From a virus (taxonomy: Duplodnaviria; Caudoviricetes): a stretch of DNA of 64,000 nt. This document shows positions 60,465 to 62,045 of this stretch, one piece after another. The translations under genes and the position numbers were made by a program. The notes under the pieces are model-generated. The model was not told the origin of the DNA, searched no databases, and saw nothing but the letters and a program-made list of their open reading frames with translations. How positions within the stretch are numbered: position 1 is the first letter of the stretch; the number at the start of each line of letters is the position of its first letter. The stretch spans positions 128,001 through 192,000 of the IMG/VR virus record IMGVR_UViG_3300028886_000028, one strand, 5' to 3'.

Positions 60465-60821
60465 ATGATTGACGCACCAAAAACAACATTATTAAATAAT
60501 ATAGATGACTTGGATTTAGTATTTCTTGAAGGGGAAAACGATTTAGAGTTTGAAATAGATGATTATTCATTTGTTGTAACATATTCCCTAGAAGAAGATG
60601 ATTTTTTCACTGAAGATGATGAGGAAATCAAAGGAGGAAAAAAACTGAAAATTTTATCAATAAACGCATATGATAATGTAGAGAATGAAGACATAAACGT
60701 TAACGTTGATGACGAAATGCAAAAATTATTCTCAGATTATTATAAAAATATGTTAAATGATGAAGGATATGAGCCATTAAATGTTAATTTTGGTGAATTT
60801 TCTGATTTTATGGATGAATAA
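60465..60821 (+). CDS. Highly acidic hypothetical protein
   Basis: Asp/Glu-rich, 118 aa. Confidence 0.55.
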   Translation: MIDAPKTTLLNNIDDLDLVFLEGENDLEFEIDDYSFVVTYSLEEDDFFTEDDEEIKGGKKLKILSINAYDNVENEDINVNVDDEMQKLFSDYYKNMLNDEGYEPLNVNFGEFSDFMDE

Positions 60822-60845
60822 TTTCTTTTTTTGATATTTTTTTTG

Positions 60846-60853
60846 TATCTTTG
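60846..60853 (+). promoter_or_regulatory. Bacteroidota -7 element driving tRNA cluster
   Basis: TTTTTTGTATCTTTG (TAnnTTTG). Confidence 0.7.
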
Positions 60854-60910
60854 CTAAAAGAAATTAATGGGGCAGAGCGTTACCTAAGAGACAACAGCCC
60901 CATTAAATTT

Positions 60911-60992
60911 GGCAGAATGGCGGAATTGGCAGACGCGCATCACTCAAAATGATGTATCTCATGGTGTAAGGGTTCAAGTCCCTTTTCTGCTA
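60911..60992 (+). tRNA. tRNA-Leu(CAA)
   Basis: Cloverleaf: GGCAGAA/TTCTGCT, D arm GGCGGAATTGGCAGACGC, CATCA-CTCAAAA-TGATG, long V arm, GGTTCAAGTCC. Confidence 0.9.
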
Positions 60993-61039
60993 CAATTATA
61001 AAAGTAGTCCAACCTTGGCAAAGGTTAAAATATAAAACA

Positions 61040-61180
61040 AGGAAAGTAACAGCAAGCATTTGTAATACGCGATGGCTCCGCTGACTAATATGGTCGTTTA
61101 GGTTCGAATCCTAACATATGAGGATAACTCGTAGTGTGGTGGAATTGGTAGACACGGCGGAATAATTAAAATTCTTTCCT
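61040..61180 (+). ncRNA. Circularly permuted tRNA-like RNA in an ACAGCAA stem (Y-RNA/YrlA-like architecture)
   Basis: Order is V arm, T arm (TTAGG-TTCGAAT-CCTAA), loop-closed acceptor stem, D arm (TGGTGGAATTGGTAGACAC). Closed by TCCGC/GCGGA and by outer AGGAAAG/CTTTCCT. Confidence 0.7.
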
Positions 61181-61188
61181 AAATAGAT

Positions 61189-61276
61189 GCTCTTGTGGTG
61201 GAATTGATAGACACCCCAGAATTAGAATCTGGTGCGAAATAATAGTAGCGTGTGGGTTTGAGTCCCTCCAGGAGCA
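61189..61276 (+). tRNA. tRNA-Leu(TAG), slightly atypical
   Basis: GCTCTTG/CAGGAGC, CCAGA-ATTAGAA-TCTGG, long V arm; T loop TTTGAGT and one T-stem mismatch. Confidence 0.75.
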
Positions 61277-61304
61277 CTTTTTTGAAATAAATAATATTTA
61301 TATT

Positions 61305-61457
61305 ATGAGTCCTTGTTGGCATTGCCCTTATTTCAATAAAATGGGAAAAAGGTATTTTTGCTCATTGAAGGGTATCTATTTAACAGAAAATGGTGTAGAT
61401 TTTTGCTCTGGGCCGAGTTACAAATATAAAAAGAAACATAAAAATAGAAAAAAATGA
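61305..61457 (+). CDS. Small Cys-rich basic protein (50 aa, not in ORF track)
   Basis: MSPCWHCPYF...FC...FC...KKKHKNRKK; four Cys. Confidence 0.45.
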   Translation: MSPCWHCPYFNKMGKRYFCSLKGIYLTENGVDFCSGPSYKYKKKHKNRKK

Positions 61458-61617
61458 AGAATATAACACGACAACAACAGCAACAAAGTTAAGTCGTATC
61501 AACCATATGGGAACGGTTGATACTGATATTGTATTAACCAATCCTATTTATATTATAATTATTTTTTACCTTAAGTTCCCATTAGTAACAATACTGATGG
61601 GATTTTTTGTTTTATAA

Positions 61618-61689
61618 TGGAGAGTGGTATAACGGCCATTACACGAGATTTTGGTCCTCGGAATCCGGGTTCGATTCCCGGCTCTCCAA
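61618..61689 (+). tRNA. tRNA-Gln(TTG)
   Basis: TGGAGAG/CTCTCCA with U1-A72, anticodon loop TT-TTG-GT, CCGGG-TTCGATT-CCCGG. Confidence 0.88.
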
Positions 61690-61696
61690 CAAAAAA

Positions 61697-61783
61697 TGGG
61701 AGTTGGCCGAGTGGTTTAAGGCGTGTGCCTCTGGAACACATGTAGACATAAATCTACCGTAGGTTCGAATCCTACATTCCCAA
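61697..61783 (+). tRNA. Long-variable-arm tRNA with CTG (Gln) anticodon
   Basis: TGGGAGT/ATTCCCA acceptor, D arm GGCCGAGTGGTTTAAGGC, loop CT-CTG-GA, V arm GTAGA-CATAAA-TCTAC, GTAGG-TTCGAAT-CCTAC. Confidence 0.75.
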
Positions 61784-61853
61784 CTTTGAAAAAATGTTTT
61801 TTAACGTTAGTATATATTTATTCAAAATAAGAAATTAATTTTGAATAAAGAAA

Positions 61854-62045
61854 ATGGAATATTTTGTAGATACAGAAAGAATTAGTTTGGATTATTCATA
61901 TGATAGAATATTTAAAGAAATACCAAAATATAGATTAACATTATATGATAAATATGGGCATTTTGATGCTGACGTTTATTTAACAGATGAACAAATTGAA
62001 GATTTGCTCACGGGACTTGAAAAAATAAAAAATAACATTAAATGA
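61854..62045 (+). CDS. Hypothetical protein
   Basis: 63 aa after ATATTTAT. Confidence 0.5.
   Translation: MEYFVDTERISLDYSYDRIFKEIPKYRLTLYDKYGHFDADVYLTDEQIEDLLTGLEKIKNNIK

What the first reader, a model, noticed from the sequence alone, without database searches (positions are those of the whole stretch)
61040..61180. Circularly permuted tRNA mimic in the tRNA cluster (Y-RNA/YrlA-like with an ACAGCAA stem)
Seen, 5' to 3': AGGAAAG, TAACAGCAA, spacer, TCCGC (3' anticodon strand, 61077), variable arm GACT-AATAT-GGTC, perfect T arm (61098-61114), acceptor strands CATATGAG/CTCGTAGTG joined by a 5-nt GATAA loop, Leu-type D arm (61137-61155), GCGGA (5' anticodon strand), CTTTCCT. So the 3' half precedes the 5' half, there is no anticodon and no free CCA end. 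Established: bacterial YrlA Y RNAs have this T-arm/closed-acceptor/D-arm topology on a terminal Ro60-binding stem. This RNA has a class II variable arm and lacks the usual Ro60 motif, and no Ro60/TROVE gene is in the window. Inference: a new phage tRNA-mimic RNA, perhaps a decoy against anticodon nucleases or a Ro60/RtcB-linked RNA. tRNA finders would probably miss it.
Basis: partly seen in the sequence, partly recalled or inferred. Interest (0 to 1): 0.85.

Follow-up and report, generated by a model that had tools for sequence, protein, structure and literature searches.

The report
Phage tRNA-mimic RNA with Ro60-type handle
This 141-base stretch of a 401-kb cattle-gut phage is a gene for a small RNA shaped like a leucine tRNA written in rotated order and clamped by a conserved "handle"; the same handle marks many RNAs encoded beside a Ro60-like ring protein in unrelated phages, so it is most likely a new kind of Y RNA and not a broken tRNA.

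Summary
ARAGORN and all Rfam families, YrlA included, miss it. It is not a junction of two broken tRNA genes. It is one of 10 same-strand units in this phage that share a 6-8 bp closing helix followed by NN-ACAGCAA. The same design occurs in well over 100 viral contigs around rotated tRNA bodies of many isotypes. In these, the closing helix, T arm and sealed acceptor stem all show compensatory changes.

The phage has no TROVE gene. It does encode a DUF2828/DUF7788 protein whose model matches only Ro60 structures over its full length. That domain occurs in 37 of 46 handle-bearing records, against 5 of 50 tRNA-bearing controls. In many loci the units flank the gene on the same strand, for example in E. 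coli phage LinBro and Mycobacterium phage Wilder. RtcB is not generally linked (0 of 46).

Best reading (0.65): a Y-RNA-like partner of the phage Ro60-like protein with a class II tRNA-Leu mimic as its variable module. It lacks YrlA's GNCGAA motif and its Rfam match, so it is a new variant, not a YrlA member. Binding, a discrete RNA and function are untested. This scan reached the same reading earlier on other genomes and on paralogues in this genome.

The parts
61040..61180 (+). Whole unit: handle-clamped, circularly permuted class II tRNA-Leu mimic (about 141 nt)
   Evidence: Sequence. One of 10 paralogous units in the genome. Syntenic ortholog in L229. Missed by ARAGORN and Rfam.
61040..61046 (+). 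Closing helix, 5' strand (AGGAAAG)
   Evidence: Perfect complement of 61174-61180. Paralogues keep the helix through paired changes: AGGAATC/GATTCCT, AGGAAAC/GTTTCCT, AGGGAAC/GTTCCCT. In the family all 7 pairs show double changes. Control.
61047..61055 (+). Conserved unpaired motif UAACAGCAA (NN-ACAGCAA), directly 3' of the closing strand
   Evidence: Invariant in the 34-sequence alignment. Present in all 10 own units, in E. coli phage LinBro and in Mycobacterium phage Wilder.
61058..61066 (+). Putative second helix P2, 5' strand (ATTT-G-TAAT); weak
   Evidence: Can pair with 61165-61172. L046 has a different pair of strands at the same place (TATT-T-AAAAC / GTTTTAATA; read). A/T-rich, not tested statistically; inferred.
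61077..61081 (+). 3' strand of the anticodon-stem equivalent (TCCGC)
   Evidence: Pairs with GCGGA at 61157-61161. L046 keeps it as TCCGT/ATGGA, but the ortholog L229 does not, so this helix is the least secure.
61082..61096 (+). Class II variable arm (GACT-AATAT-GGTC)
   Evidence: Sequence. In L229 it is replaced by a different hairpin, GGAAAT...ATTTCC.
61098..61114 (+). T arm (TTAGG-TTCGAAT-CCTAA)
   Evidence: Sequence. The T arm is predicted by RNAalifold with compensatory changes across the family.
61115..61136 (+). Closed acceptor hairpin (CATATGAG-GATAA-CTCGTAGTG), no CCA
   Evidence: Sequence. The ortholog L229 has entirely different but complementary strands, AGAGACT/GGTCGCT. Family acceptor hairpin: 7 pairs, all with double changes; 34 of 83 units pair 7/7 and 56 pair at least 6/7 in the tRNA register.
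61137..61155 (+). U8-G9 plus Leu-type D arm
   Evidence: Differs at one base (G61147 vs A) from the D arm of the neighbouring tRNA-Leu(TAG). Matches the tRNA-Leu(TAA) gene elsewhere in the genome at 80%. Nearly unchanged (two differences) in L229.
61157..61161 (+). 5' strand of the anticodon-stem equivalent (GCGGA)
   Evidence: Pairs with 61077-61081.
61165..61172 (+). Putative P2, 3' strand (ATTAAAAT), part of the A-rich tract before the closing strand
   Evidence: Family consensus before the 3' closing strand is A-rich (87% A, 65% A, 67% T at the last three positions). Identical in L229.
61174..61180 (+). Closing helix, 3' strand (CTTTCCT), followed by AAA
60911..60993 (+). Upstream neighbour tRNA-Leu(CAA); same strand, probably the same transcript
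   Evidence: ARAGORN and Rfam. Same neighbour in L229.
61189..61277 (+). Downstream neighbour tRNA-Leu(TAG), 8 nt after the unit
   Evidence: ARAGORN and Rfam. Metatranscriptome contigs run from the unit into this gene.

Best explanation
The element is a gene for a small non-coding RNA of a widespread, uncatalogued phage family that works like a Y RNA.

- Handle: the two ends pair in a 7-bp closing helix. Together with the adjacent unpaired UAACAGCAA and an A-rich opposite strand, this forms a conserved handle. The handle is inferred to dock on the phage's own Ro60-like ring protein (DUF2828/DUF7788, G000:246215-247882, outside the window).
- Variable module: here a class II tRNA-Leu body in rotated order (3' half, sealed acceptor stem, 5' half) with no anticodon loop and no free CCA end. 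It cannot decode.
- Maturation (inferred): it is transcribed with the neighbouring tRNAs and freed by their RNase P and 3'-end processing.
- Function (by analogy with Rsr/YrlA): the tRNA-like module would present a tRNA shape to tRNA-binding enzymes or nucleases while the ring protein acts on RNA. This would serve RNA surveillance or counter-defence during infection.

Shown: the architecture, its conservation and covariation, the Ro60 fold of the protein, and the genomic coupling of handle and gene. Inferred: physical binding, a discrete RNA, and the function.
For: 1. Ten units with the same handle lie in this phage, all on the + strand and interleaved with tRNAs. Their closing helices differ by paired changes. 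Five carry no tRNA body, so the handle is the constant part.

2. Family-wide, a pattern of motif plus T loop hit more than 118 viral contigs. The 6-mer before the motif has its exact complement downstream in 76 of 117 hits, against 8-12 of 117 for shifted controls. RNAalifold on 34 units predicts the closing helix, T arm and closed acceptor, with 18 of 19 pairs kept through double changes. That alignment was chosen partly by these features.

3. A syntenic ortholog (L229) keeps the handle, T loop, D arm and 3' part. It has a fully different yet complementary acceptor hairpin.

4. The genome has no TROVE match. A 555-aa ORF carries DUF7788 (E 1e-20), a weak DUF2828 match and PHROG 850 'RNA-binding protein'. 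Its AlphaFold model (pLDDT 85) has Ro60 chains as its 12 best PDB matches, over the full length. A DTSGS stretch that fits the DxSxS MIDAS pattern of vWA domains has four of its five residues invariant in the family alignment.

5. DUF7788 occurs in 37 of 46 handle-bearing records (14 of 14 that are at least 90% complete), against 5 of 50 tRNA-bearing control records (1 of 9 complete). Fisher p = 1e-12.

6. In loci fetched by the RNA pattern alone, units lie within about 350 nt of the gene on the same strand in 10 loci. Several more loci have runs of short units on both sides of the gene.

7. Cultured phages show the same:
- E. coli phage LinBro (Felixounavirus) has 3 units just after the gene.
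- Mycobacterium phage Wilder's 'Ro-like RNA binding protein' is DUF2828+DUF7788 and is followed at once by 3 tandem units.

8. Design parallel from the literature: Y RNAs bind Ro60 through the stem formed by their ends plus a conserved 5'-side motif, and YrlA carries a tRNA-like domain (PMC4201824). A TROVE-type phage Ro60 binds adjacent Y-like RNAs and host PNPase (PMC12135203). The Ro60-like gp130 of phage Bas63 sits upstream of its tRNA array and counters the Ppl defence (preprint 10.1101/2024.10.10.617714).
Against: - No binding, no discrete RNA and no ends are shown. The only expression data are metatranscriptome contigs that also cover neighbouring genes and could be DNA carry-over.
- In this phage the finding lies 57 kb from the Ro60-like gene, and no unit abuts the gene.
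- The handle differs from every Ro60-binding motif described (GGUCCGA, GNCGAAN0-1G, CGAA).
- 9 of 46 handle-bearing records lack the gene; all nine are incomplete.
- The element's own fold is only marginally better than shuffles. The ortholog's is no better than shuffles and has lost the GCGGA/TCCGC pairing.
- Many family members keep complete anticodon loops and an encoded CCA. A pure protein-docking role does not explain this.
Confidence: 0.65

Rival explanations
1. It is a circularly permuted tRNA gene. The transcript is cut at the handle and its ends are joined (for example by the phage's RtcB). RNase P and 3' processing then open the acceptor loop to give a working tRNA, as in red-algal permuted tRNAs.
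For: - After rotation at the acceptor loop, ARAGORN of 56 family units as tRNA plus 'intron', of many isotypes with plausible anticodon loops.
- Several units encode discriminator plus CCA inside the acceptor loop.
- This phage encodes RtcB.
Against: - The window's unit has no anticodon loop. Joining the ends would leave a 13-nt junction, and ARAGORN rejects the rotated form.
- There is no bulge-helix-bulge motif, and no such endonuclease is known in bacteria (established knowledge).
- RtcB is absent from 46 of 46 other handle-bearing records.
- Half of the handles in this genome carry no tRNA body.
- The Thr(TGT) mimic duplicates an ordinary tRNA-Thr(TGT) of the same phage.
- The handle tracks a Ro60-like gene, not a ligase.
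Confidence: 0.07
2. The handle is a processing or punctuation signal of phage tRNA operons (an RNase site, a small ribozyme, or a mobile cassette boundary). Its link to the Ro60-like gene is only shared genomic neighbourhood.
For: - Units sit in tRNA arrays. Two (268128, 274467) begin directly after the encoded CCA of the upstream tRNA, and most end a few bases before the next one.
- The handle encloses cargo of many kinds and topologies.
- No binding has been shown.
Against: - No known self-cleaving ribozyme family matches.
- The association holds against controls that also carry tRNA clusters (5 of 50).
- In phage Wilder three units follow the gene where the stretch viewed has no other tRNA.
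- In several loci short units without any tRNA flank the gene on both sides.
Confidence: 0.15
3. It is a canonical YrlA-type Y RNA that serves a TROVE Ro60 (Rsr), for instance that of the host.
For: Same overall topology as YrlA: T arm, closed acceptor-like stem, D arm, paired ends (PMC4201824). Some Bacteroidota carry TROVE genes (control line).
Against: No Rfam YrlA match even at E<=10. No GNCGAAN0-1G motif. No TROVE gene in the phage. The handle co-occurs with DUF2828/DUF7788 genes.
Confidence: 0.05
4. It is a decayed junction of two truncated tandem tRNA-Leu genes with no function.
For: It lies between two tRNA-Leu genes, and its D arm resembles theirs.
Against: - The same order with a conserved handle recurs in 10 paralogues, a syntenic ortholog and well over 100 unrelated contigs.
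- The acceptor strands covary.
- The two 'halves' complement each other and are bracketed by a specific motif.
Confidence: 0.02

Closest known systems
YrlA, the tRNA-like bacterial and phage Y RNA bound by Rsr/Ro60 (Rfam RF02553; Chen et al. 2014, PMC4201824)
   Same: A small RNA whose 5' and 3' ends pair in a stem, with a conserved motif on the 5' side. The rest mimics a tRNA, with T arm, D arm and a loop-closed acceptor-like stem. It is encoded with a Ro60-type ring protein. Some members (M. smegmatis YrlA) are cut by RNase P and receive CCA.
   Different: - The motif is NN-ACAGCAA, not GNCGAAN0-1G.
- There is no Rfam match.
- The partner gene is DUF2828/DUF7788, not TROVE.
- The family is multicopy (10 per genome here).
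- Its modules are interchangeable: full tRNA mimics of many isotypes, anticodon hairpins, or non-tRNA inserts.
- This member has a class II variable arm.
Thermus phage phiLo Ro60 with Yrl1/Yrl2 (PMC12135203; PDB 9L5Y)
   Same: A phage-encoded Ro60 ring with adjacent small RNAs that have a 5'-3' stem and a conserved bulge motif. It assembles with host PNPase. The phiLo structure is the third-ranked (chain A; chain B is fifth) of the 12 Ro60 fold matches of the protein here.
   Different: phiLo Ro60 is reported as a UniProt-identified Ro60 homolog (its Pfam family was not tested here), and its RNAs carry the CGAA motif. The paper describes no tRNA-mimic module.
Class I RNAs of dictyostelid social amoebae (PMC7919456; search pattern in PMC5054030)
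   Same: Same handle design: a 6-bp stem joining the ends, followed on the 5' side by CTTACAGCAA. The published search pattern is GTTGRC-CTTACAGCAA ... GTCAAC-TG. The invariant positions T3, C6, C9, A10, A11 all agree with UAACAGCAA. The part between is variable.
   Different: Eukaryotic, 42-65 nt, with its own promoter element and no tRNA mimic. No Ro60-like partner is reported. Common descent or a common partner was not tested here.
Circularly permuted tRNA genes of red and green algae and some archaea
   Same: The 3' half lies upstream of the 5' half, with the acceptor ends joined by a short linker.
   Different: Those genes have a bulge-helix-bulge junction and yield decoding tRNAs. This unit has neither that junction nor an anticodon loop.

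Membership tests
YrlA (Rfam RF02553) | Match to the Rfam covariance model | tested here: not met
   No Y-RNA family match on 60800-61900 at E<=10, on the whole window at gathering scores, or in the main handle cluster.
YrlA (Rfam RF02553) | GNCGAAN0-1G motif near the 5' end (the proposed Rsr-binding site) | tested here: not met
   Absent from 61040-61180. UAACAGCAA occupies that position. The motif definition comes from PMC4201824.
YrlA (Rfam RF02553) | tRNA-like domain (T arm, D arm, loop-closed acceptor-like stem) on a stem formed by the RNA's ends | tested here: met
   Sequence. Covariation across the family and in the ortholog.
YrlA (Rfam RF02553) | Encoded next to a TROVE-domain Ro60 gene | tested here: not met
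   No TROVE match in the 401-kb genome. The Ro60-fold gene is DUF2828/DUF7788 and lies 57 kb away.
ACAGCAA-handle RNAs of phages with Ro60-like DUF2828/DUF7788 genes (uncatalogued; defined in this scan) | 6-8 bp closing helix of the two ends, covarying between copies | tested here: met
   AGGAAAG/CTTTCCT here. Paired changes in paralogues. 76 of 117 against 8-12 of 117 in controls.
ACAGCAA-handle RNAs of phages with Ro60-like DUF2828/DUF7788 genes (uncatalogued; defined in this scan) | NN-ACAGCAA directly 3' of the 5' closing strand, and an A-rich tract before the 3' strand | tested here: met
   61047-61055 and 61168-61173. Family consensus.
ACAGCAA-handle RNAs of phages with Ro60-like DUF2828/DUF7788 genes (uncatalogued; defined in this scan) | The same genome encodes a DUF2828/DUF7788 Ro60-fold protein | tested here: met
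   for this genome. 37 of 46 against 5 of 50 across records.
ACAGCAA-handle RNAs of phages with Ro60-like DUF2828/DUF7788 genes (uncatalogued; defined in this scan) | The RNA is bound by that protein | not testable with these tools
   Needs RIP, CLIP or gel-shift. The complex predictor offered here handles proteins and small ligands only.
Ro60 / TROVE-type ring proteins (for the partner protein) | Helical-repeat ring plus C-terminal vWA domain with a MIDAS motif | tested here: met
   The model matches Ro60 chains over about 560-590 aligned columns, TM 0.41-0.58. A DTSGS stretch fitting the MIDAS DxSxS pattern is largely invariant: D329, T330, S331 and S333. The Pfam TROVE profile itself does not match.
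Circularly permuted tRNA genes (algal/archaeal type) | Termini form a bulge-helix-bulge, and joining them restores a 7-nt anticodon loop | tested here: not met
   Joining would leave AUA plus ACGCGAUGGC, 13 nt. ARAGORN rejects the rotated sequence.
Dictyostelid Class I RNAs | Short terminal stem plus an 11-nt motif ending ACAGCAA | tested here: met
   Motif positions compared with PMC7919456 and PMC5054030. Resemblance of design only. The taxon, size (42-65 nt) and promoter features are not shared, so it is not filed as a member.

The most novel reading that the evidence does not exclude
The handle RNAs form a modular adaptor set for a viral Ro60-like ring. One docking handle is fused to interchangeable mimics of whole tRNAs of many isotypes, here a tRNA-Leu body without an anticodon. 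The ribonucleoprotein would bait, sponge or degrade the products of host tRNA-targeting defences, or steer host tRNA enzymes or PNPase. The same stem-plus-ACAGCAA handle in dictyostelid Class I RNAs and in giant-virus relatives of the protein would mean an ancient ribonucleoprotein shared across domains, whose eukaryotic partner protein is still unrecognised.
Probability: 0.25. Interest if true: 0.9.

Novelty: new variant of a known kind. Interest (0 to 1): 0.8.

Why it matters
Ro60 with a tRNA-like Y RNA is a known pairing, but its function is still poorly understood. Several things here go beyond what I found in the literature.

- A second, much larger branch of that pairing appears in viruses. 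It has its own protein clade (DUF2828/DUF7788), with homologs in 646 cultured phage records.
- It has its own RNA signature, which no Rfam family matches on the stretches scanned here and which genome annotation misreads.
- Its RNAs are multicopy and carry whole-tRNA mimics of many isotypes.

The family occurs in phages of laboratory hosts: Felixounavirus in E. coli, and phage Wilder in M. smegmatis. A Felixounavirus Ro60-like gene already has a counter-defence phenotype (preprint 10.1101/2024.10.10.617714). The question of what tRNA-like Y RNAs do therefore becomes directly testable in phage-host pairs.

Practically, these units corrupt annotation. In Wilder part of one unit is annotated tRNA-Asn. 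In LinBro small 'hypothetical proteins' overlap a unit. ARAGORN calls one unit of this genome tRNA-Leu.

The shared handle with the orphan Class I RNAs of social amoebae is an unexplained lead.

Tried and rejected
- Rfam at permissive thresholds. It gave no YrlA, Y RNA, ribozyme or permuted-tmRNA match on the element. The weak rli38, RsaOG and snoRNA matches nearby are chance-level and lie outside the element.
- Hammerhead, HDV-like or hatchet-type ribozyme readings of the handle. I considered these by eye because AACAG can pair with CUGUU after the 3' closing strand in some units. I dropped them: that tail is absent here (AAA follows the helix) and nothing in Rfam supports them.
- Permuted group I intron halves. 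Rejected because only 46 nt and 8 nt of flank are available between the unit and its tRNA neighbours.
- RtcB as a family-wide partner. 0 of 46 handle-bearing and 0 of 50 control records carry it.
- A permissive whole-genome scan allowing one mismatch in the motif. It returned hundreds of chance hits and was discarded. The strict scan is.
- My first pattern for handles in the five DUF7788-positive control records used too long a gap and found nothing. The corrected pattern found units in 2 of the 5. The other three were not resolved; L075 showed no unit within 3.9 kb.
- Sequence search of the protein against PDB chains found no Ro60. Only the fold comparison did.
- Metatranscriptome contigs from two bovine-gut studies cover 61019-61225 and 61076-61210 without mismatch. 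They also cover flanking genes, they are contigs rather than reads, and DNA carry-over cannot be excluded. No claim about a discrete RNA or its ends is made from them.
- The protein atlas look-up showed viral clusters only (Uroviricota, Nucleocytoviricota). It could not address a dictyostelid homolog.
- No handle unit lies directly beside the Ro60-like gene in this genome.

Full report
**What is there.** The window is bases 128001-192000 of a 401-kb virus record (31% G+C) from bovine gut. The genome carries 34 tRNA calls, a tmRNA and a CUA suppressor tRNA.

- AGGAAAG
- UAACAGCAA
- a 21-nt spacer
- UCCGC
- a class II variable arm (GACU-AAUAU-GGUC)
- a perfect T arm
- an acceptor hairpin, CAUAUGAG-GAUAA-CUCGUAGUG
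- U8-G9 and a Leu-type D arm
- G26
- GCGGA
- a 12-nt A/U tract
- CUUUCCU

The unit lies 46 nt after tRNA-Leu(CAA) and 8 nt before tRNA-Leu(UAG), on their strand. ARAGORN and every Rfam family miss it, even at E<=10. Alone, its fold energy is only modestly better than shuffles (z = -1.94). The case for it therefore rests on comparison.

**It is a member of a large family, not a gene wreck.** A pattern that joined a T loop to a Leu-type D arm found one further case with the same rotated order (L046). That case showed which parts are constant: a 7-bp closing helix with a different sequence (AGAAUAC/GUAUUCU) and the identical UAACAGCAA next to it.

- The 6-mer before the motif has its exact reverse complement 50-290 nt downstream in 76 of 117 non-redundant hits. 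For 6-mers taken 8-24 nt further upstream the figure is 8-12 of 117.
- Inside the helix most units hold a tRNA body in rotated order: anticodon region, variable region, T arm, 3' acceptor strand, a 1-20 nt loop that sometimes begins with discriminator plus CCA, 5' acceptor strand, D arm.
- 34 of 83 units pair 7 of 7 in the exact tRNA register.
- After rotation at the acceptor loop ARAGORN accepts 44 of 56 as tRNAs of many isotypes. The window's unit is not accepted.
- RNAalifold on 34 units predicts the closing helix, T arm and closed acceptor, with 18 of 19 pairs kept through changes on both sides. I note that the set was chosen partly by these features. The shifted-6-mer control is the unbiased test for the closing helix.

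**In this genome.** Ten units share the handle, all on the + strand: the finding, and nine more between 256.4 and 274.6 kb, interleaved with tRNAs.
- Their helices differ by paired changes: AGGAAUC/GAUUCCU, AGGAAAC/GUUUCCU, AGGGAAC/GUUCCCU and others.
- Five carry no tRNA body.
- One holds a non-rotated tRNA-Leu-like body.
- Two (268128 and 274467) start directly after the CCA of the preceding tRNA.

The handle is therefore the constant element and the tRNA mimic is an exchangeable module. Maturation by the tRNA-processing enzymes of the neighbouring genes is a reasonable inference.

**The ortholog.** A related phage contig, whose neighbouring protein is 88% identical, has a unit at the same place between the same two tRNA-Leu genes (L229).
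- The handle, T loop and A/U tract are unchanged, and the D arm differs at only two positions; the 3' closing strand is identical while the 5' strand differs at two positions and keeps six pairs.
- The acceptor strands differ at almost every position yet still pair (AGAGACU/GGUCGCU).
- The stretch between motif and T arm has diverged, and the GCGGA/UCCGC pairing is lost. The anticodon-stem equivalent is thus the least secure helix, and the L229 fold is no better than shuffles.

**The protein link.** Notes from earlier runs of this scan suggested a Ro60-like partner, and I tested this.
- The genome has no TROVE match.
- A 555-aa ORF at G000:246215-247882 carries DUF7788 (E 1e-20), a weak DUF2828 match and PHROG 850 'RNA-binding protein'.
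- Its AlphaFold model (48-sequence alignment, pLDDT 85, pTM 0.83) has Ro60 chains as its 12 best PDB matches: Xenopus, human, Deinococcus Rsr and Thermus phage phiLo. The alignments run full length, with E from 1e-5 to 7e-4.
- A DTSGS stretch fitting the DxSxS MIDAS pattern is largely invariant in the family alignment: D329, T330, S331 and S333.

Across records:
- DUF7788 occurs in 37 of 46 handle-bearing records, including all 14 that are at least 90% complete.
- It occurs in 5 of 50 tRNA-bearing control records fetched without regard to the handle (1 of 9 complete). Fisher p = 1e-12.
- Two of the five control positives do hold NN-ACAGCAA units.

In loci fetched by the RNA pattern alone, a unit lies within about 350 nt of the gene on the same strand in ten loci. 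Others have runs of short units on both sides of the gene.

The protein has homologs in 646 cultured phage records.
- In E. coli phage LinBro (Felixounavirus) three units follow the gene inside the tRNA array.
- In Mycobacterium phage Wilder the annotated 'Ro-like RNA binding protein' is DUF2828+DUF7788. It is followed at once by three tandem units. The middle one is a rotated tRNA mimic whose first part is annotated tRNA-Asn.
- Neither locus has a YrlA match.

RtcB, present in this phage, is absent from all 46 handle-bearing and all 50 control records. It is not a general partner.

**Mechanism.** I commit to the Y-RNA reading at 0.65. The closing helix plus UAACAGCAA would dock on the Ro60-like ring. 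The tRNA-Leu mimic would be the effector module, as in YrlA (PMC4201824). The RNA would be released from the tRNA operon transcript by RNase P and 3'-end processing.

The function is unknown. Published hints are:
- the assembly of a phage Ro60 and its Y-like RNAs with host PNPase (PMC12135203);
- the finding that the Ro60-like gp130 of Felixounavirus Bas63 counters the Ppl defence. The authors of that work guessed that some of the adjacent 'tRNAs' are Y RNAs (10.1101/2024.10.10.617714).

Binding, a discrete RNA and function are all inferred. The only expression data are metatranscriptome contigs covering the unit without mismatch in two studies, and these are weak.

The main rival for the family, real permuted tRNA genes matured by cleavage and ligation, fits the complete anticodon loops and encoded CCA of many members. 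It fits this unit poorly: there is no anticodon loop, no bulge-helix-bulge, and the ligase is not conserved.

**Comparison and novelty.** The element works like YrlA but fails three of YrlA's four defining features: the Rfam model, the GNCGAA motif and a TROVE neighbour. I therefore file it as a new variant of the Y-RNA kind, not as a YrlA member.

The handle design equals that of the orphan Class I RNAs of dictyostelids (GUUGRC-CUUACAGCAA ... GUCAAC-UG; PMC5054030, PMC7919456). This resemblance is unexplained, and I did not test it beyond the motif.

I found no paper describing the ACAGCAA handle in phages. This scan has flagged the same family on other genomes and on two paralogues in this genome. 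My tests agree with those notes except on RtcB.

Noticed in passing
window 61697-61784 (+): A tRNA with a Gln anticodon (CUG) on a class II body: an 88-nt gene with a long variable arm and a Ser/Leu-type D arm. It sits next to an ordinary tRNA-Gln(UUG) and is conserved in the related contig L229 (3939-4027). It may be a recoding or mis-charging tRNA. The genome also has a CUA suppressor tRNA.
   Followed up: partly
window 61305-61457 (+): A 50-codon ORF rich in Cys and Lys lies inside the tRNA cluster, followed by a strong terminator-like hairpin at 61577-61602. Not examined further.
   Followed up: no
window 61010-61039 (+): The hairpin CCAACCUUGGCAAAGGUU and the A-rich run up to the unit's first base are almost unchanged in the ortholog L229, while sequence just upstream is deleted there. 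This may be a promoter or a processing element for the unit.
   Followed up: no
G000:C1:248200-248500 (L227:3216 onward): The gene after the Ro60-like gene begins with a class I aminoacyl-tRNA synthetase signature (...DSLHLGHL...). By eye it looks like a tyrosyl-tRNA synthetase. The promoter-like TTTG motifs upstream suggest a Bacteroidota host.
   Followed up: no
G000:C1:265681-266520, 268517-268925 and 270569-270646: ARAGORN reports a tRNA-Ser(UGA) with a 751-nt insertion in the anticodon loop, a tmRNA and a CUA suppressor tRNA, all in the main tRNA and handle cluster.
   Followed up: no
L231:2722-2792 (Mycobacterium phage Wilder) and L230:6313-6550 (E. coli phage LinBro): Public annotation misreads handle units. 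Wilder's 'tRNA-Asn' is the first part of a rotated tRNA mimic and does not match the Rfam tRNA model. Two small 'hypothetical protein' CDSs in LinBro overlap a unit.
   Followed up: partly
window 61076: One metatranscriptome record (run X13) carries Illumina adapter sequence directly before 61076-61077, the first base of the UCCGC strand. A cDNA fragment therefore ended there. This is a single record and may be random fragmentation.
   Followed up: no
L175:3060-5285 and L111:3741-4509: Some phages carry runs of 5-8 very short handle units (50-130 nt) packed on both sides of the Ro60-like gene, most with no tRNA body.
   Followed up: partly
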